Origin: a virus
Lineage: Duplodnaviria; Caudoviricetes
DNA: 41,331 nt
IMG/VR virus record: IMGVR_UViG_3300042210_000071
Location: 1-41,331 of that record
Reading direction: 5' to 3' (one strand)
The stretch's first letter is position 1. The number at the start of each line of letters is the position of its first letter. Positions 1 through 40,054 of the stretch are shown here, one piece after another. The notes beneath the pieces are model-generated. The model ran no database searches, was not told the origin of the DNA, and was given only the letters and a program-made list of their open reading frames with translations. Position numbers and translations under genes: made by a program.

Positions 1-447
1 TTATTCTTTAACACTAACTATATTAAAATGAGTGTCGAAATAGAATCTTTTTTCGGCTAATATTAGGCCGCCTAATTGATTCTTTGCTCTATACTTGAAT
101 GTAGCACCAATTTCATCGATGGTTTTTTCTGAGACTGTGTCTAAAATGTTTTTATACCTCTCATACTCAGATAAATGTTTTGCGTATTGCTCTTTTCCGA
201 ATGCTGTTGTGTCATTTTTGTAATCATTTACCCATCCTTCATATAGTTTTTTGTATTTTAATGAAGACTCTTTTAAGTAAAAGGTGTCAATTTCCGATAC
301 AGAAACAAACTCATAACTATTTGGGTCGTTAAGGCTTTCAATTAATACCGGTTCAATAACTTCTTTGAACCTATCTTCAATTGTTGGATCATTTTTACAA
401 GAGAATATCACTGTTGTAAAAATTAAGAGTAAGAGTAATTTTTTCAT
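1..447 (-). CDS. Lipoprotein, hypothetical (possible superinfection-exclusion or lysogenic-conversion protein)
   Basis: MKK + hydrophobic core + lipobox IFS-C; downstream of and co-oriented with the repressor. Confidence 0.7.
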   Translation of the reverse strand: MKKLLLLLIFTTVIFSCKNDPTIEDRFKEVIEPVLIESLNDPNSYEFVSVSEIDTFYLKESSLKYKKLYEGWVNDYKNDTTAFGKEQYAKHLSEYERYKNILDTVSEKTIDEIGATFKYRAKNQLGGLILAEKRFYFDTHFNIVSVKE

Positions 448-32523: not shown

Positions 32524-33016
32524 AGCAACAGTATCGGCTAAACTTCAAGTCGCTATCGGCTATTCCGAAGCCGACTTCAATACTTTTATTGATGAGGCTC
32601 AAATATTTGACATCAAGCCGTTGCTTTGCGAGAATTTTTACGCCGATTTGTTAGCCAAAAAAGACGAGCCAGCTTACAAACTGCTAATTGACGGAGGATC
32701 GTATCTATATAACGAGAGAAACATCGAGTTTCCCGGAATTGCAGATGTGCTGTCTTACTTTACCTATGCCAGGTTCGCGCTTAAATCTAATTTCGTAAGC
32801 ACTTCTCACGGGTTTTCCGTTAAAAAGACACCCGTATCAGATCCGGTATCGGAAGGTGAGAAAGCACATATTTATAATCATTACCGAAAAGACGCTAATA
32901 CCCTTTTTGAAGATGTAAAAAAATACATCGAGCGCAATATCGAGCTGTTCCCAAGCTACAAATGTGACGGATGCGGCTCAAATCCACAAATTTTCAAATC
33001 AAGAGTCATACAATGA
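32504..33016 (+). CDS. Putative head-tail adaptor
   Basis: FIDEAQ.FDIKPLL, LSYFTYARF helical pattern; follows portal. Confidence 0.6.
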   Translation: MTRLINKATVSAKLQVAIGYSEADFNTFIDEAQIFDIKPLLCENFYADLLAKKDEPAYKLLIDGGSYLYNERNIEFPGIADVLSYFTYARFALKSNFVSTSHGFSVKKTPVSDPVSEGEKAHIYNHYRKDANTLFEDVKKYIERNIELFPSYKCDGCGSNPQIFKSRVIQ

Positions 33017-36000
33017 TATTCAGTTTCATCGACATATCGACATCAAAGTTTTCAATCAACGGACGAACTATGTTCAAAACTTTCGTCCCGTTTTTTATTG
33101 ATGATACGCACATCAAAATTTTCAACATTTATGACAGCCGGTGTCCGCTGATTGATTCTACGGATGTGGCCGACATAGAAGTTGGCGGGATTGTTTTTGC
33201 AAACGCCACAGACCTCATCAACGCGATTCATGGCGTGCTTTTCTCAAGAACTGTGGCCGGAGATATTGACAACGCTCAAATCGAATTGAACAGACTGGCT
33301 ATAATAAGCCTTCAAAACAGTAAATCAGATGTTGGCCACGTGCATGATGACCGATATTATACTAAGTCGCAAATAGACCAGCTCGTCACATCGATAGTCG
33401 ATTCGTCAGATCTCATAGCAAGCGGTCAGATTGATGGTGACAATCTCATTTTCTTCAATAATGCAGGCCTGCAGTTGTTTAGTTTAGACGCGAAGAGGTT
33501 CACGAGCCAAGGCACTATTGTTTCTTTTGCAAATGGGGTTTTGACATTGAAAAATGAAAGAGGCGAGGTTTTATCACAAACGAGCATCTCTGCTGAGGAG
33601 AGCTATTATGATAAATTTCAATTCCTTTCCGGATTAGAGGATGATTTGGGAGACCTTATCCCAACTGAAAAATTTTCAGTTGTAGAAACCACGTCAGGTT
33701 TATTTTTCTTTGTGTCAAAAATTGGCAACAAAGAAGTTTTTGAAGGGAAAAGGCTGCTTGTTAATTTGAACAAATTTCGTGTTGATTTTGGCCAGCCAGA
33801 TATCACAAACGGCTTATTCAAAGCTTGGGGGCTTGCAGGATTTGAGGGAGCTTTCGTGTCTAACGAATTTTACACGTTTGATTTTTGGGAATTGGAGTCG
33901 CCTTCAGACAACATCCCCGTCACCTTCACCACCACCGCAACGGACGTACCTACTTTGGTAGCTTGGCTAAACACCCAAAACCCGCCAATCGAAATTACAG
34001 CCAATCAAATCCCCGAATGGGAGTTGACAGACGGTACACGTTACCGTTTTGAGAACAAAGGAAAAGGCGTTTACGGCGTTGGGCAAACGCCAATTGTGGA
34101 GGGTGATTTTAAGCTCGTCTTGGACGGGGCTAATACAAAAAAACTTGAAACAATAACAACGCCCGGTATCTACCCTCTTTGGAATGTCGTATTAGAAAAT
34201 GTACAAAGAATCGTCAACGGGCAGGAATCGGGATTTGTAACGAGCGTAAATGAGGTGTTGAGCCTTTCTGGAGTGTCGGTTGTGAAAAAGGATATGCCGA
34301 TAGTTTACGGTTTTGATTTAATCAATGGTGCTGGCACTATCGTCTCTTCGGTTGCTGAATTAAACGCTTTTCCGCATTCAGATGGGGCTACGGTGGTTTT
34401 GAGTTTTGGGGGCTCATCTTACCTATACGTGTCTGTTTCTGCACAATGGATACTGATTGGCATTTTCACAGCTATTTCAAACACTTTTGCAGAAATAGAG
34501 TTGGAAGCGGAGTACGCTACTGTTCCAAAAGTCACAAGCTCCGACTATGGTATGATGGTTGTCAATTTAGATAAAGTCATTTCAACAACCAACGGAGAAT
34601 TGAGCGATGCCGACAACGTTCAGATTGACTTGATGCGAAGCTTTATCAATTTTCCAACTTCGGTCATCGCTGTTAAAAATAAGGTAGTTTTGACAGACGA
34701 TTTAGTTTTTTCAAAAAAGAAAATGAATGACCTTTTCGTTAAGGTTGTCGCAAATGACGTAAATCATTTTGATTTCAACTTTGACTATCGTTACAAAAAT
34801 ATTTCAGGAACTGTCATCCTCAAGGAAAGAAGAACCCTAATGCTGAATGAATTGGCGTTGCTGAAAGCCAACCAAACAGGCGGGCTTGTATTAACAGCTA
34901 TCTTAGGCAACCTTGAAGGAACGATTGAGGGCGTTACTGGTGAAGGCGACAAGTTCAAAGAGCCCTTGCAAACTGCTTTTGACAACACGACCAACGAAAA
35001 CATGGTTGTCAACGCCATCCTGCAACGGGATGATATCTCACAAGTCACAGTTACGGTCATAGCTAACGACCTCACCGACCGAACGTCATTTGCGACTGTC
35101 ACAGGCGAAAAGGTAATAATTTCAGATATCGAAGCAATTCACACAGGTAAGCTTCACCAATGGTTCAATTTCGGGCATGAATTCGTGATGCCATTTGAAA
35201 GCGAGTTTGTTGATACTTTTACCGATATAGGTACTGAATTACAAGGTAATAATATTTCATCGTACACAAAGAAGAACGGTGGTCACATGAGCCTATCCGC
35301 AATTGTAGGAAAAGAGATACAGCTTACTGAAGACGTAGATGCAGATGTGATTCATGTCACAGGGCATGGTGCGAACGACCCTATCAGAATCGATTGGACG
35401 GACGGTGACAAAACTTTCCGCCCTAATCTGATTATCGTTGGAGCTGGATTAGAAACTGACTTAGACGCTAACTGGCAGACCTCGTTTGGTTTTGGAATGG
35501 AATTTATAGAACCAACTTCTGTAAGTACAGTTCCTACAATTCCTTTAGGTGCAAGCGAACCTGATGTTCATCAGCAGTCGCCTGCAACTGCAATTGTAGC
35601 GGGTAAGCTGAGAGCCATCAAAAAGTCAGTCCCCAATGCAACTTGGCAAGAGGTGCGTTTAGCCGCTCGTGCAACAGCAAGCAGAGCGACTGCTTGGGAT
35701 ATGTACCGAGGCTTCGGTGTCATTGATACAGCGGCGGCAATTGCTCAATTGAAGTTAGACGTTGAAAGAAATTCGCTTGTAAAAGCAAACATTTATAACC
35801 GAAACAATAAGGTCGCTAAGAGCATCGACTATTCTAAAATAAATGAAGATGTCGCAGTACCGAAGCGGCATTTAGCCTCTTTGGGATTGGTAGTCGCTGA
35901 TGAAATAGTCAACAAAGCCGTTTCGTTTATGAAAGATGATGGCGGCTTTAGGGATTTGAAAGCCGACATACCTGGATTTTATAAAACCAAATTTTTGAAG

Positions 36001-37023
36001 CAATCCATTAAAAGATTGCATGAGAATGAGGAATTTGACGGGCTTACAGGCATCTTCTTACCTGAAGCAAGCAGAACATCTAACGGAACTTCCGGTAAGT
36101 TGTACAATCTCCTGAATCCGGCGATATCTTTCGGTTTCACGAGAAATAGCCTAAAATACGGACATCGGGAAAGTTTAAAGATTGTAGAGTTCACTGCTCA
36201 CGAGCCTGCAATCTGCTATCTTAACGGATACCCCGAACTAATTGTAGAACCTCAAAGAACTAATTTAGTTTTAAACAGCGAACCGACAGCTAATGAGGGA
36301 GCTGCTTCGGCGGGGGTAACTTACCAAACCTTGCCAAATCCTTTTGGTTTTGCGAGTTGGGTGAATGTGCCGTTTTCATCATCTGTTTTTGGTTTTAGAT
36401 ATAATGGCAATGTTACAGACGCTAATTTTTACGAGCAACATTATTACATAAAAGTTCCGAAAGGTATGGCTATTGACTTTTCAAATGATGCATCTGTTTT
36501 AGATAGTTATCTAAGCGTGGTTTTGAGAGGTAATATAAATATAAATAAAACTGCAAAATTCAAATTAAAAAAAATAACAAATGAGTTGTATTTTTTGGCT
36601 GCAATTGATTTTCCAAGAGGCTCAACCAATAATGCAAATAACGGGATAGCACTACCAAACACAACTGCACATCAGCGAGATGCAATTTACACAGGCATAG
36701 GGCTTATACAAACAACTGACACGGCTTTTGTAGGCTCATACATCCGCACCACGGGAGCAACAAAAACAGTTAATGCAGACGTTTATACGATTAGCAACTT
36801 ACTTGCCAATGGAATGATAACTGCCACAGAAGGAACAATTATAGAACGTGGAAGCAACCAAGAAGTTAGAACTGTTTGGATAGGAGGAAATAAGTTAAAA
36901 TTTATTGACAATGCTTTGGTATCGACCGTTGCGGAAGTGCCAAATAATAATGCTTTTACGCTTGACACTTCAAGTTACAGACTATCTGAAATATTAATTT
37001 ATAATAAAGCTATTTTACCATGA
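33013..37023 (+). CDS. Large mosaic fibre/spike protein with internal subtilase (S8)-like domain
   Basis: ATGA-coupled start at 33013; HVHDDRYYTK motif; S8-like motifs ~35080-35760; C-terminal EPQRTNL...SYIRTTGAT fibre-type domain. Confidence 0.7.
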   Translation: MIFSFIDISTSKFSINGRTMFKTFVPFFIDDTHIKIFNIYDSRCPLIDSTDVADIEVGGIVFANATDLINAIHGVLFSRTVAGDIDNAQIELNRLAIISLQNSKSDVGHVHDDRYYTKSQIDQLVTSIVDSSDLIASGQIDGDNLIFFNNAGLQLFSLDAKRFTSQGTIVSFANGVLTLKNERGEVLSQTSISAEESYYDKFQFLSGLEDDLGDLIPTEKFSVVETTSGLFFFVSKIGNKEVFEGKRLLVNLNKFRVDFGQPDITNGLFKAWGLAGFEGAFVSNEFYTFDFWELESPSDNIPVTFTTTATDVPTLVAWLNTQNPPIEITANQIPEWELTDGTRYRFENKGKGVYGVGQTPIVEGDFKLVLDGANTKKLETITTPGIYPLWNVVLENVQRIVNGQESGFVTSVNEVLSLSGVSVVKKDMPIVYGFDLINGAGTIVSSVAELNAFPHSDGATVVLSFGGSSYLYVSVSAQWILIGIFTAISNTFAEIELEAEYATVPKVTSSDYGMMVVNLDKVISTTNGELSDADNVQIDLMRSFINFPTSVIAVKNKVVLTDDLVFSKKKMNDLFVKVVANDVNHFDFNFDYRYKNISGTVILKERRTLMLNELALLKANQTGGLVLTAILGNLEGTIEGVTGEGDKFKEPLQTAFDNTTNENMVVNAILQRDDISQVTVTVIANDLTDRTSFATVTGEKVIISDIEAIHTGKLHQWFNFGHEFVMPFESEFVDTFTDIGTELQGNNISSYTKKNGGHMSLSAIVGKEIQLTEDVDADVIHVTGHGANDPIRIDWTDGDKTFRPNLIIVGAGLETDLDANWQTSFGFGMEFIEPTSVSTVPTIPLGASEPDVHQQSPATAIVAGKLRAIKKSVPNATWQEVRLAARATASRATAWDMYRGFGVIDTAAAIAQLKLDVERNSLVKANIYNRNNKVAKSIDYSKINEDVAVPKRHLASLGLVVADEIVNKAVSFMKDDGGFRDLKADIPGFYKTKFLKQSIKRLHENEEFDGLTGIFLPEASRTSNGTSGKLYNLLNPAISFGFTRNSLKYGHRESLKIVEFTAHEPAICYLNGYPELIVEPQRTNLVLNSEPTANEGAASAGVTYQTLPNPFGFASWVNVPFSSSVFGFRYNGNVTDANFYEQHYYIKVPKGMAIDFSNDASVLDSYLSVVLRGNININKTAKFKLKKITNELYFLAAIDFPRGSTNNANNGIALPNTTAHQRDAIYTGIGLIQTTDTAFVGSYIRTTGATKTVNADVYTISNLLANGMITATEGTIIERGSNQEVRTVWIGGNKLKFIDNALVSTVAEVPNNNAFTLDTSSYRLSEILIYNKAILP

Positions 37024-37577
37024 TACAATTAGCACAATTCACAGTCTTCCCATCAGCCGGCCACAGCAACGCGGACCCAGGAGCCGTTGCTAATGGCTTC
37101 AAAGAAGCAGCATTGACACAAGAGCTTCGCAACATGGTAGCTGAACGGCTCAAAGCTGCCAACCATCGCTTTATCACCGACAACGACAACGAGAGCAACC
37201 GGCAGCACCAAGGGCGCATCAAGCCGGGCAACGGGAGCGTGCTGCTCGATTTTCATTTCAATGCCGGGCCGCCAAGCGCAACCGGCACAGAGGTCATCGT
37301 TAGCAATGTAGCCAATGACAACAGCAGGCTTTTTGCCCGCGAGCTCATAGATGGATCTTCACGAATCTTAGGCATTCGCAATCGCGGAGTAAAAGGTGAA
37401 AGAGGCTCACAACACAGCCGTATAGGTATCTTGCACCTTGGTGCAGGCATAGCCGCGTTGGCGGAGGTTTGCTTCATGACGAATGCGCAAGATTTAGCTG
37501 CTTATCAAGTCAACAAAGAGCGGTTGGCTGACTTTTACGCAGAAATGCTCATTAAATATGATAATCTTATAAAATAA
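37020..37577 (+). CDS. Endolysin, N-acetylmuramoyl-L-alanine amidase (Amidase_3)
   Basis: SAGH..DPGA..E, HFNA, GTEV, NRGVK, AEVCF. Confidence 0.92.
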   Translation: MIQLAQFTVFPSAGHSNADPGAVANGFKEAALTQELRNMVAERLKAANHRFITDNDNESNRQHQGRIKPGNGSVLLDFHFNAGPPSATGTEVIVSNVANDNSRLFARELIDGSSRILGIRNRGVKGERGSQHSRIGILHLGAGIAALAEVCFMTNAQDLAAYQVNKERLADFYAEMLIKYDNLIK

Positions 37578-37582
37578 AACAC

Positions 37583-38602
37583 ATGAAAGAATTAGTAGTA
37601 GCCATCACACCCACATTGCTCAAGATACACAACGTGTGCGCATTAATGACAACGAAGAAGGGCGTTGCATTGATTGCTCCGGTAGTGGTGGCGTCTGCAA
37701 TAGTTGACGTTAAATCAGTCATCATCTTGCTAATATCTTTGATGATAGCTGATTTTGCTACCGGTATCCTTGCGAGCTACACTATATGGAAAAAAGAACA
37801 TGCCGGAAAGTTGGAAAAACCAAGGCTTATTTCGAGCCAAAAGCTGATAAAATCGGGTTATAAAATTTTCTTCTATTTCTCCATCATTATAGTGTCGTAT
37901 GCAATCGAGAAGATTTTCTTTATCAACACGTTTTCATTTTCTTTTAGCATTGCAAACTTTACGGTCACTACTATGGCAACGGCATTCCTGTGCCTGATTG
38001 AATTATTTTCTATATTCGTTGAGAACCTACCAAAAATAGGTTTTGATGTTATTGAAATGACAAAGAAAATTTATAAAAAATTTATTACAACTAAATCAGA
38101 TTTCACGGCCAAGTCTGTTGTGATTGTGATTTTGATATCGTTATCATCGTGCGCGGCTAAGAAACCTCTGCCTCCCAATGTTATAACCACAAACAAAACG
38201 ATCAGAGAGATTTCGAGAGATTCCACGATTGTAATAAAAGGAGAAATGAGTCTGAAGGTAGTTGAAATTGGATGCGCCGACGGATCTAAACCCACAGTTA
38301 AAAACATATCAGAAAAAAAGGACACAAATTTAAAAGCGCCAACAATCAAAGAGACTCCCAACGATTCCGGAGGCATTACTTTGGCTATAAATTGCGAGAC
38401 TGAGGCTCAAAAACTTTTTTTACAATGGAAAGAGCAGTTCATATCTGAGCAGATAACCGAAAAGATTCCGGTACAAGTTCCTTTCGATCCAAACTGGTTT
38501 CAAACTCTTTTTATGTGGGCAGGTAAGATCGTCATCGGTTTGGCTGTGGTAGCAGTAGGGCTGAGGTTGTCGCCGTTGAAGATGAATGTTTTTAAGTTTT
38601 AA
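37583..38602 (+). CDS. Holin (Phage_holin_4_1-like) fused to u-spanin-like lipoprotein
   Basis: DFATG, SS.KL..S..K...Y and E..SI..EN...G holin motifs; internal lipobox LSS-C190; C-terminal TM. Confidence 0.75.
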   Translation: MKELVVAITPTLLKIHNVCALMTTKKGVALIAPVVVASAIVDVKSVIILLISLMIADFATGILASYTIWKKEHAGKLEKPRLISSQKLIKSGYKIFFYFSIIIVSYAIEKIFFINTFSFSFSIANFTVTTMATAFLCLIELFSIFVENLPKIGFDVIEMTKKIYKKFITTKSDFTAKSVVIVILISLSSCAAKKPLPPNVITTNKTIREISRDSTIVIKGEMSLKVVEIGCADGSKPTVKNISEKKDTNLKAPTIKETPNDSGGITLAINCETEAQKLFLQWKEQFISEQITEKIPVQVPFDPNWFQTLFMWAGKIVIGLAVVAVGLRLSPLKMNVFKF

Positions 38603-39756
38603 AACTCCGGCGATTTTTCAATAATCTCGTTCCTGTAAACTTCTTTGATGACTTTAGCATATCTCATCGTCATCAACTTCGAGCTGTGGCCATATAGTTC
38701 GCGGAGTGCATCTAAATCAATCCCTGCTAATATTTTTGCGTTCGCCCCGGCGTGCTTTTCGCTGTACATATTTGCGCTGATTCCCAATCCGTCTTTTACC
38801 AATTTTTTCCACCTTTTAGTTGCTGTGTCTGTTTTAATTCGTGTAGGTCCTGGCAAGAAGTCTTTATGATTGCCTCTATTTCCTACTCCGGATTCTCTGA
38901 AGCTTCCAAAGAGATAATATTCTCCGGGAAATTTTCCAAGGTTCATTTTTTTAAGAGACTCAAGCAAGTGGTTGTTAATCGGAACCACCCTTTCTTTATT
39001 TTTTTTAGTTGTCTGAGGAGGTAAGATGATTTGTTTGTTTTTAATGTCAACTTTAGAAATGCGTATTTGTAGTATCTCGTTCGGTCTGATACCTGTGTGG
39101 AAAAGTGTTTGAATGAAATTATAAAAGTTTGGATCTTTAGAGAGCAGTTCTTGTTTGATTAAAAGATGATCTTCGGGGGTAGCCGGAATATTTGCCATGC
39201 TTTCTTCAGTAGGAAGGTTTTTAATGTTATGAGCAGGATTTAAATCAATAATATCGAATTGTATTAACTCTGACATCACGGCTTTTATATGGTTGAGGTG
39301 TTTGTTGTAGGCCTTATTAGACCAGCTTCTTAATTGCTTTGCTCTGTCTGCTATATTTCGGATGTGAGAGCGTTTTACCTCTGAGATGATAATATGTGCA
39401 AGGCCAAGACTTTTTGCGGCCTCTGAGTAAAATTTTACCGATCCTTTGTAGCCCGCATAGCTCTTTTTTGATATGTTAGGTCTTTTCTTTTCTAAAGCGA
39501 AATCCAAGGCTTCAGTTAAGGTAAATTTTTCTGTGTGAAAAAGGTTTTCGTTATCAGAAATTGGATCCCACCCATTTTTAAGTTTTTGATGAAGTGCGTC
39601 TCTAAGCATGGAGAATTCTCGCTCGCGCTCTTCAATGTTTTTTATCCTGTTCAGTTGGAATTTATACTTTTTGGGTACGCCATTAAACCTGAAGAATACG
39701 TACCAACCGTCTTTTGCTTTTACAACTATTGGAATTGAAAATTTTTGATTTCTCAT
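38599..39756 (-). CDS. int: Tyrosine recombinase / phage integrase
   Basis: TGIRPNE, TTKK, YSEKH, LYGHSS, TMRY; N-terminal arm-binding-like beta domain; next to tRNA. Confidence 0.93.
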   Translation of the reverse strand: MRNQKFSIPIVVKAKDGWYVFFRFNGVPKKYKFQLNRIKNIEEREREFSMLRDALHQKLKNGWDPISDNENLFHTEKFTLTEALDFALEKKRPNISKKSYAGYKGSVKFYSEAAKSLGLAHIIISEVKRSHIRNIADRAKQLRSWSNKAYNKHLNHIKAVMSELIQFDIIDLNPAHNIKNLPTEESMANIPATPEDHLLIKQELLSKDPNFYNFIQTLFHTGIRPNEILQIRISKVDIKNKQIILPPQTTKKNKERVVPINNHLLESLKKMNLGKFPGEYYLFGSFRESGVGNRGNHKDFLPGPTRIKTDTATKRWKKLVKDGLGISANMYSEKHAGANAKILAGIDLDALRELYGHSSKLMTMRYAKVIKEVYRNEIIEKSPEF

Positions 39757-39825: not shown

Positions 39826-39835
39826 ATGAATATTG

Positions 39836-39920
39836 CGGAGAAAGAGGGATTCGAACCCCCGGAGGTGTGACCCTCAACGGTTTTCAAGACCGCCGCATTC
39901 GACCGCTCTGCCATTTCTCC
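39836..39920 (-). tRNA. tRNA-Ser(TGA), probable integration target
   Basis: GGAGAAA/TTTCTCC-G acceptor, GCGGT-CTTGAAA-ACCGT anticodon arm, long variable arm, GGTTCGAATCC. Confidence 0.97.
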
Positions 39921-40054
39921 AATTCGTCGAGAAGTTTTCAAGACCGCCGCTCCCGACACTTCGGGGCGACCGCTCTGCCATTTCTCCAATTCGTCGAGAA
40001 GCTTTCAAGACCGCCGCTCCCGACACTTCGGGGCGACCGCTCTGCCATTTCTCT
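39921..40054 (-). repeat. Two 67-bp tandem units derived from the tRNA-Ser 5' half
   Basis: 39921-39987 and 39988-40054, 2 mismatches; each contains a CCCGA-CACT-TCGGG palindrome. Confidence 0.9.

What the first reader, a model, noticed from the sequence alone, without database searches (positions are those of the whole stretch)
37583..38602. Holin and u-spanin-like lipoprotein encoded as one ORF
Seen: aa ~1-170 carry holin_4_1-like motifs and several TM segments. With no stop, these run into K-SVVIVILISLSS-C190 (signal core + lipobox), a polar region with RDST and two further Cys, and a C-terminal TM (WFQTLFMWAGKIVIGLAVVAVGL). Established: N-terminal lipoylation plus a C-terminal TM is the u-spanin architecture (T1 gp11), normally a separate gene. 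No other spanin candidate is in the lysis cassette. Inference: a lysis polyprotein split by signal peptidase II, or an in-frame internal start (Met159, ATG 38057).
Basis: partly seen in the sequence, partly recalled or inferred. Interest (0 to 1): 0.75.

Follow-up and report, generated by a model that had tools for sequence, protein, structure and literature searches.

The report
Phage holin fused to spanin-like lipoprotein
A prophage encodes its predicted inner-membrane hole-former (holin) and a likely outer-membrane-breaking lipoprotein (spanin) as one protein, kept in three related lineages although nearly all relatives use two genes, so the host's lipoprotein peptidase likely has to cut the two apart, which is untested.

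Summary
Confirmed. ORF 37583-38602 (339 aa) joins a complete Phage_holin_4_1 holin (aa 1-177) to a 12-residue hydrophobic stretch, a lipobox (LSS-C190), a beta-rich domain and a C-terminal membrane helix. It is not an assembly error: two other runs bridge the joint without change, and two diverged lineages keep the fusion (a 78%-identical protein; a contig about 89% identical in DNA, with mostly synonymous changes at the joint). Both halves are otherwise separate genes: 141 of 143 relatives of the C-half are short stand-alone proteins, and 41 of 46 tested genes directly upstream of such proteins are cell-wall hydrolases, so the family behaves like an unnamed Bacteroidota u-spanin. Met159 belongs to the holin's own tail and has a poor start context. 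The holin can only be made as the fusion. Predicted topology puts C190 on the periplasmic face, so processing by Lgt/LspA is the likeliest route (about 0.55); nothing is shown at the bench. No natural holin-u-spanin fusion turned up in my searches; the scan noted an unrelated holin-i-spanin fusion on other DNA. New variant of a known kind; rare.

The parts
37020..37577 (+). Endolysin, N-acetylmuramoyl-L-alanine amidase (Amidase_3), 185 aa, no export signal seen; ends 5 nt before the fusion ORF
   Evidence: Pfam PF01520 E 6e-20; PHROG endolysin families
37583..38602 (+). Holin-u-spanin-like fusion ORF, 339 aa
   Evidence: full-length homologue P0002, 78% identical
37583..38113 (+). Complete holin (aa 1-177), Phage_holin_4_1 family, with basic amphipathic C-terminal helix (aa 154-173) predicted cytoplasmic
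   Evidence: Pfam; alignment with 33 stand-alone holins; model and fold search, top hit Fpv3 holin E 8e-8; charge distribution
38057..38059 (+). Met159, the proposed internal start; a residue of the holin tail with a weak initiation context
38114..38152 (+). Internal signal core (12 uncharged residues, aa 178-189) and lipobox Cys190
   Evidence: 13 of 13 residues identical in P0002; one conservative change in X10; family lipobox profile
38150..38602 (+). Predicted mature lipoprotein (aa 190-339): beta-rich periplasmic domain with conserved Cys231 and Cys271, then C-terminal membrane helix
   Evidence: 143 representatives; conservation; model
38507..38563 (+). C-terminal transmembrane helix (aa 309-327), predicted inner-membrane anchor
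   Evidence: present in 132 of 141 short relatives
38599..39756 (-). Tyrosine integrase, convergent with and overlapping the end of the fusion ORF; prophage end
   Evidence: Pfam PF00589 E 6e-19
39835..39920 (-). tRNA-Ser(TGA), likely integration site
   Evidence: ARAGORN; position beside the integrase (inference)

Best explanation
The ORF is one translated fusion of a complete holin to a u-spanin-type lipoprotein that has no start codon of its own, and it likely works as a lysis polyprotein that the host's lipoprotein machinery would cut in two. Shown: one frame, complete holin, intact lipobox, intact C-half, conservation of the join. Inferred steps: (1) the holin inserts in the inner membrane with its basic tail (aa 147-177) in the cytoplasm; (2) the tail's end plus aa 178-189 act as the n- and h-regions of an internal signal and send aa 190-308 to the periplasm, with aa 309-327 as stop-transfer anchor; (3) Lgt adds diacylglyceryl to Cys190 and LspA cuts between Ser189 and Cys190; (4) the lipid end goes to the outer membrane while the C-terminal helix stays in the inner membrane, giving an envelope-spanning u-spanin; (5) the holin is left with a 12-residue hydrophobic tail, releases the amidase at lysis, and the spanin then fuses the two membranes. 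Holin and spanin would be made 1:1.
For: Fusion kept in three lineages: the window, P0002 (78%) and the X10 contig (167 differences over 37119-38700, only gap outside the ORF). At codons 149-207 of X10 the 19 listed differences (of 21) give 13 synonymous and 5 amino-acid changes and no stop. Signal core and lipobox are 13/13 identical in P0002 while aa 200-281 are only 29/77 identical; that middle part is 65/77 identical to a stand-alone family member in G001, so the spanin half exchanged its core with the free family and kept frame, lipobox and both cysteines. Holin is complete: stand-alone relatives end 26-42 residues after the ENLP motif, the window reaches Lys177 after 31. Positive-inside pattern: loop 66-94 has 8 K/R, loop 109-126 has 1, tail 147-177 has 7, which puts the tail inside and Cys190 outside. 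Lipobox LSS-C fits the family and the consensus (PMC8689077). The C-half family follows a cell-wall hydrolase of five different Pfam families in 41 of 46 loci tested. No other spanin candidate near the cassette. Overlapping, unfused holin and u-spanin-type genes exist (L096, phage RAP44), a plausible precursor state.
Against: No biochemical or expression data; no RNA run was listed. I found no paper on LspA cutting an internal lipobox behind several membrane helices. Described signal peptides are 16-26 residues (PMC8689077). The 12-residue hydrophobic core is at the short end of the family (12 of 118 are as short) and has low model confidence. Spanin function of the family is inferred from architecture and gene context only: the periplasmic part does not match four SpaninDB u-spanins above shuffles, 5 of 46 loci have no known hydrolase upstream, and the two closest stand-alone relatives follow a probable capsid gene, not an endolysin. 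The fusion is rare (1 of 143 representatives). TcdE-family topology is itself unsettled (PMC9527704).
Confidence: 0.55

Rival explanations
1. An in-frame internal start at Met159 makes a separate spanin precursor with a 31-residue signal peptide; the full-length fusion supplies the holin, cut or uncut.
For: The Met159 form passes a simple lipoprotein filter. Met159 is kept in P0002 and X10. Its upstream profile score is in the top 12% of 156 internal ATGs.
Against: Met159 aligns within the tail helix of stand-alone holins and is Met in 6 of 25 of them. G at -3, no A at -12 or -13 (1 of the 4 determinants of PMC6847099). Folding energy of the start region, -7.1 kcal/mol, equals the median of internal ATGs; 1 of 29 predicted gene starts is as structured. 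X10 carries four changes towards G/C at -21 to -7. Only 3 of 118 family members have the lipobox Cys at position 30 or later.
Confidence: 0.2
2. The fusion is not cut. It works as a holin with two extra membrane segments; the spanin half stays in the inner membrane and is inactive, or acts only as a periplasmic regulatory domain, and outer-membrane rupture is poor or done otherwise.
For: No precedent found for internal LspA cleavage. Natural uncleaved-type holin-endolysin fusions are described (PMC9527704, section 10). The fusion is confined to a small clade.
Against: Lipobox and signal core are the best-conserved part of the C-half between fused lineages (13/13), and the periplasmic core was swapped with a free, presumably working family member without loss of frame. 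The hydrophobic core stayed signal-length (12) and was not extended to a full membrane anchor.
Confidence: 0.14
3. The C-half family is an envelope lipoprotein with another job (for example superinfection exclusion or lysis regulation), not a spanin; the fusion is then holin plus accessory lipoprotein.
For: No homology to tested SpaninDB u-spanins; no fold match; two conserved periplasmic cysteines (74% and 91%), whereas PMC6139136 states that its 58 u-spanins have none; nearest free relatives sit in the head region away from the endolysin.
Against: Lipobox plus C-terminal helix in 104 of 141 short relatives by a strict filter; beta-rich periplasmic part as in T1 gp11 (PMC6139136); stays behind endolysins of five unrelated families; holin, endolysin and this gene are adjacent in L046 and L050; Bacteroidetes phages are reported to use only u-spanins (PMC12596118). 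The SpaninDB row for phi10:1 does hold one periplasmic Cys.
Confidence: 0.09
4. Assembly error or a recent stop-codon loss in a decaying prophage.
For: Almost all relatives of both halves are split.
Against: Independent contigs bridge the joint unchanged; two diverged lineages keep the fusion with mostly synonymous change at the joint; the spanin half has no start codon of its own, so the split state cannot be restored by a stop alone.
Confidence: 0.02

Closest known systems
Unimolecular spanins (T1 gp11; SpaninDB u-spanins of Cellulophaga phi10:1, Flavobacterium 11b, Riemerella RAP44; PMC6139136)
   Same: Lipobox Cys, beta-rich periplasmic domain, C-terminal membrane helix, position in a lysis cassette of a Gram-negative phage.
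   Different: No N-terminal signal or own start codon: the lipobox lies at residue 190 behind a whole holin. No detectable homology of the periplasmic part to the four tested. Two conserved periplasmic cysteines.
Phage_holin_4_1 holins (PF05105; TcdE-like, named from TIGR01593 and PMC9527704), Flavobacterium phage Fpv1/Fpv3-type subfamily
   Same: Sequence (33-43% to stand-alone members), helical fold, basic amphipathic C-terminal tail, endolysin neighbour.
   Different: Stand-alone members are 173-197 aa and stop after the tail; here the tail runs on into a signal core and a 150-residue lipoprotein.
Natural holin-endolysin fusion of Clostridium sporogenes (TpeE family; PMC9527704 section 10)
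   Same: A holin translationally fused at its C-terminus to a second lysis protein, 1:1.
   Different: Different holin family and cargo, Gram-positive host, no lipobox; here the cargo must reach another membrane, which needs a cut.
Bradyrhizobium japonicum FbcH cytochrome b-c1 polyprotein (recalled; my search, did not retrieve a paper)
   Same: A polytopic membrane protein followed by an internal signal and a periplasmic, C-terminally anchored protein, separated by a host signal peptidase.
   Different: Signal peptidase I, no lipidation, cellular respiratory complex.

Membership tests
Phage_holin_4_1 (PF05105) | Profile match above the curated cut-off over most of the model | tested here: met
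   42.1 bits against cut-off 22.2, model 6-113 of 116
Phage_holin_4_1 (PF05105) | Multi-helix membrane protein with basic C-terminal tail | tested here: met
   fold search returns holins, best E 8e-8
Phage_holin_4_1 (PF05105) | Permeabilises the inner membrane and releases endolysin | not testable with these tools
   no assay possible; amidase gene 5 nt upstream is context only
u-spanin (PMC6139136) | Lipobox Cys preceded by a hydrophobic core | tested here: met
   LSS-C190 after 12 uncharged residues; matches family columns
u-spanin (PMC6139136) | The lipoylation signal is at the N-terminus of its own gene product | tested here: not met
   Cys is residue 190 of a fusion; residues up to 177 align with stand-alone holins. 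Met by the free relatives
u-spanin (PMC6139136) | C-terminal transmembrane domain | tested here: met
   aa 309-327; helix in the model
u-spanin (PMC6139136) | Beta-rich periplasmic domain | tested here: met
   six strands between the lipobox and the C-terminal helix, mean pLDDT 82.5, pTM 0.41
u-spanin (PMC6139136) | Lies in a lysis cassette with no two-component spanin | tested here: met
u-spanin (PMC6139136) | No periplasmic cysteine (an observed trait of the 58 listed, not the definition) | tested here: not met
   Cys231 and Cys271 conserved in 74% and 91% of 119 aligned sequences; the listed phi10:1 sequence also has one
u-spanin (PMC6139136) | Sequence homology to a listed u-spanin family | tested here: inconclusive
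   4 of the 58 tested (T1 gp11, phi10:1, 11b, RAP44): periplasm-only profile scores within shuffles; 54 not tested
u-spanin (PMC6139136) | Lipidated, outer-membrane sorted, complements an RzRz1 defect | not testable with these tools
   needs bench work

The most novel reading that the evidence does not exclude
A phage uses the host's lipoprotein signal peptidase as the protease of a lysis polyprotein: LspA cuts an internal lipobox behind a four-helix holin, and this cut is also the switch, the uncut fusion being an inactive holin (antiholin-like) so that hole formation is tied to spanin maturation and to the state of the host's lipoprotein pathway.
Probability: 0.15. Interest if true: 0.85.

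Novelty: new variant of a known kind. Interest (0 to 1): 0.6.

Why it matters
Holin, endolysin and spanin are normally separate gene products, and a u-spanin is defined by an N-terminal lipoprotein signal. A natural, selected fusion means either that Lgt and LspA can process a lipobox 190 residues in, behind a polytopic membrane protein, or that a holin tolerates a large periplasmic tail. The first would widen what counts as a lipoprotein, since predictors look only at N-termini, and gives a ready test substrate. It also fixes holin and spanin at 1:1. As a by-product the work outlines an unnamed, cysteine-containing family of u-spanin candidates (about 140 clusters at 50% identity) in Bacteroidota prophages that Pfam, PHROGs and NCBIfam do not name. 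The limit is rarity: three lineages, none cultured as far as my searches show.

Tried and rejected
Assembly error: rejected. Thr175 (ACG) as a relic or near-cognate start of the spanin: rejected, X10 reads a synonymous ACA and the DFT/DLT motif is part of stand-alone holin tails. Frameshift giving a free holin: only an A6 run at 38075, no canonical slippery heptamer by inspection; a -1 shift there would stop at once; not supported, not excluded. Internal promoter or terminator at the joint: counts within shuffles. Searches for further fused relatives: word-indexed search near length and longer lengths with the family profile (only the 7995 best candidates scored, 329-2000 aa) gave only P0001 and P0002; pattern scans with the fused protein or its halves found nothing in viral, metagenome or genome contigs; C-half single-sequence search found nothing; DUF6712 and amidase scans gave no locus with the fusion. 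Fold searches of the C-half: nothing at E <= 0.001 or Z >= 5, which does not show a new fold. No RNA holder listed. Runs X14, X16, X17 and X6 laid nothing on the joint. Alignment A5 (holins and lipoproteins mixed) was misaligned and not used. The T1 gp11 localisation paper (PMC6206483) was not available. Bacterial genomes could not be searched by kinship because the window is a virus record. No complex prediction was run, as no binding is claimed.

Full report
Observation. The window is a virus record: a prophage with replication, terminase and structural genes, ending in an integrase and tRNA-Ser. Its relatives point to a Bacteroidota host (Flavobacterium phage fF4, Myroides, Flavobacteriales); I did not determine the host itself. 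An Amidase_3 endolysin (37020-37577) is followed after 5 nt by one 339-codon frame. Residues 39-166 match Phage_holin_4_1 above the cut-off. After Lys177 come 12 uncharged residues, the lipobox LSS-C190, a polar region with Cys231 and Cys271, and a hydrophobic helix at 309-327.

Is the fusion real? Contigs of runs X4 and X5 cross the joint with no difference. A contig of run X10 (hot-spring metagenome) covers 37119-38700 with 167 other letters and one gap, outside the ORF. Over 37991-38240 it has 21 differences and no gap; the 19 listed fall in 18 codons, 13 synonymous and 5 changing a residue, none a stop. I saw only part of X10's differences elsewhere in the ORF, so a stop there is not excluded by direct view. 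P0002, a 334-aa protein from another assembly, is 78% identical over the whole length. It differs from X10 (five-residue deletion, T169A), so there are three lineages. These are contigs, not reads.

How do relatives look? Of 143 representatives hit by the C-half among 1.84 billion proteins, 141 are 100-210 aa, one is P0002 and one is a 2552-aa protein with short repeated matches. Of the 141, 109 have a lipobox by a strict pattern, 132 a C-terminal hydrophobic helix, 104 both. I aligned 118 of them with the window (dropping truncated or odd N-termini, so the invariant lipobox Cys is partly by selection); the two periplasmic cysteines are kept in 74% and 91%. A profile search of longer proteins returned only P0001 and P0002 (weak evidence). 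In 56 of 56 loci (55 viral contigs and phage fF4) the gene stands alone. I scanned the gene directly upstream in 46 of them (9 near-duplicates and 1 without upstream gene left out): 41 are Amidase_2, Amidase_3, CHAP, M15 peptidase or phage lysozyme, 5 have no Pfam match. In L046 and L050 the order is holin_4_1, CHAP, lipoprotein as three genes. Against this, the two closest free relatives (G001, L127) follow a probable capsid gene. For the holin half, 45 of 46 loci (one ran off its contig, one of the 45 is partial) and 8 of 8 further loci end in a stop after the tail, at 173-197 aa when complete.

Anatomy of the joint. Stand-alone holins end in a basic amphipathic helix 26-42 residues after ENLP; the window's tail reaches Lys177 after 31. 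So the holin is whole, and what follows is the hydrophobic core and lipobox of the lipoprotein without its own Met-Lys start. In L096 and in Riemerella phage RAP44 a holin gene overlaps the start of a separate u-spanin-type gene in another frame; a small deletion in such an overlap would give this fusion (inference). The signal core and lipobox are 13/13 identical in P0002, aa 200-281 only 29/77, aa 282-339 52/58; the middle part of P0002 is 65/77 identical to the free G001 gene. The tree of 47 C-halves groups both fused proteins with G001 (100/99). I read this as recombination with the free family after the fusion, keeping frame, lipobox and cysteines, which argues that the spanin half still works.

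Topology. Family hydropathy peaks at 46-64, 96-114 and 126-144, with a weaker N-terminal segment; loop 66-94 has 8 K/R, loop 109-126 has 1, the tail has 7. By the positive-inside rule the tail is cytoplasmic whatever the N-terminus does, so aa 178-189 cross outwards and Cys190 meets the periplasmic face, where Lgt and LspA act (PMC8689077, passages read). The model of aa 1-200 is helical, confident for 41-170 and poor for 179-200; it matches holins. The model of aa 178-339 has six strands, two of them 18 residues long, then the C-terminal helix, like the beta-rich u-spanins of PMC6139136 (abstract, passages, section 13 and rows of supplement 2 read). It has no clear fold match. Its periplasmic profile does not recognise T1 gp11 or the u-spanins of phi10:1, 11b and RAP44 above 200 shuffles, while the fF4 protein scores 101 bits.

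Internal start. Met159 is a holin-tail residue, Met in 6 of 25 distinct stand-alone holins with the ENL[PK] motif. It has A at -6 but not at -3, -12 or -13, the positive determinants in Flavobacterium (PMC6847099, abstract and section 15 read). Its start region folds at -7.1 kcal/mol, the median of 156 internal ATGs, against -2.3 for 29 predicted gene starts (these starts are my ORF calls). A position profile ranks it in the top 12% of internal ATGs, which leans the other way. It would put the lipobox Cys at 32; the family median is 20 and 3 of 118 reach 30. An internal start is thus possible but not favoured, and in any case the holin is made only as the fusion.

Mechanism. I commit to a polyprotein that Lgt lipidates at Cys190 and LspA cuts, freeing a u-spanin and leaving a holin with a short hydrophobic tail (0.55). 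Rivals: internal start (0.2), uncut fusion (0.14), C-half not a spanin (0.09), artefact (0.02). All processing and lysis steps are inferred.

Literature. Searches for holin, spanin and fusion terms listed no natural holin-spanin fusion; I read passages in 3 of the 23 papers, where the terms meant the three-gene system or an engineered holin-endolysin, and saw the others only as listings. A natural holin-endolysin fusion is described (PMC9527704, passages and section 10 read). PMC12596118 (passages read) states that Bacteroidetes phages use only u-spanins. Searches for internal lipoboxes gave nothing relevant. The library lacks most subscription papers, PMC6206483 was not held, and I saw only searched rows of one SpaninDB supplement, so a mention elsewhere is possible. 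The FbcH analogy is recalled (one search found no paper). The scan's notes hold no look-alike of this protein and one unrelated holin-i-spanin fusion in a soil phage (e1-6289096), which I did not check.

Verdict. Real, selected, rare fusion of two known kinds of lysis protein, with a topology that seems to demand an unusual internal lipoprotein processing step. New variant of a known kind; interest 0.6.

Noticed in passing
L096:2477-3614; L123 (phage RAP44) 1209-2298: Holin gene whose end overlaps, in another frame, the start of a separate lipobox-plus-C-terminal-helix gene: a likely precursor state of the fusion.
   Followed up: partly
window 38180-38425 versus P0002 and G001:19807-20295: Mosaic spanin half: P0002 aa 200-281 is 65/77 identical to a stand-alone gene of a different, probably Mu-like prophage and 29/77 to the window. 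The same prophage shares the amidase (84%) and the 1350-aa protein (74%) with the window.
   Followed up: yes
G001 (L068, L069): A 96%-complete prophage with amidase and stand-alone lipoprotein 14 kb apart and no holin_4_1 match; its holin is unidentified.
   Followed up: partly
window 39900-40053: Two tandem 67-nt repeats that copy the 5' end and anticodon arm of the adjacent tRNA-Ser, each with a short inverted repeat.
   Followed up: no
window 32971-37023: 1350-aa protein without Pfam match just before the endolysin; its stretch around residue 870 resembles a subtilase active-site serine motif (recalled, untested).
   Followed up: no
window 1-447, minus strand: 148-aa lipoprotein in the early region, no family match; possibly a lysogen-expressed exclusion protein.
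   Followed up: no
L014, L018, L026, L036, L041, L049, L054: A 91-125 aa protein with one N-terminal hydrophobic segment and a coiled-coil-like tail sits before the endolysin and the lipoprotein in many related prophages; a holin or lysis-regulator candidate.
   Followed up: no
PMC6139136 supplement 2, phi10:1 row: The listed u-spanin has a periplasmic cysteine although the main text says none of the 58 has one.
   Followed up: no
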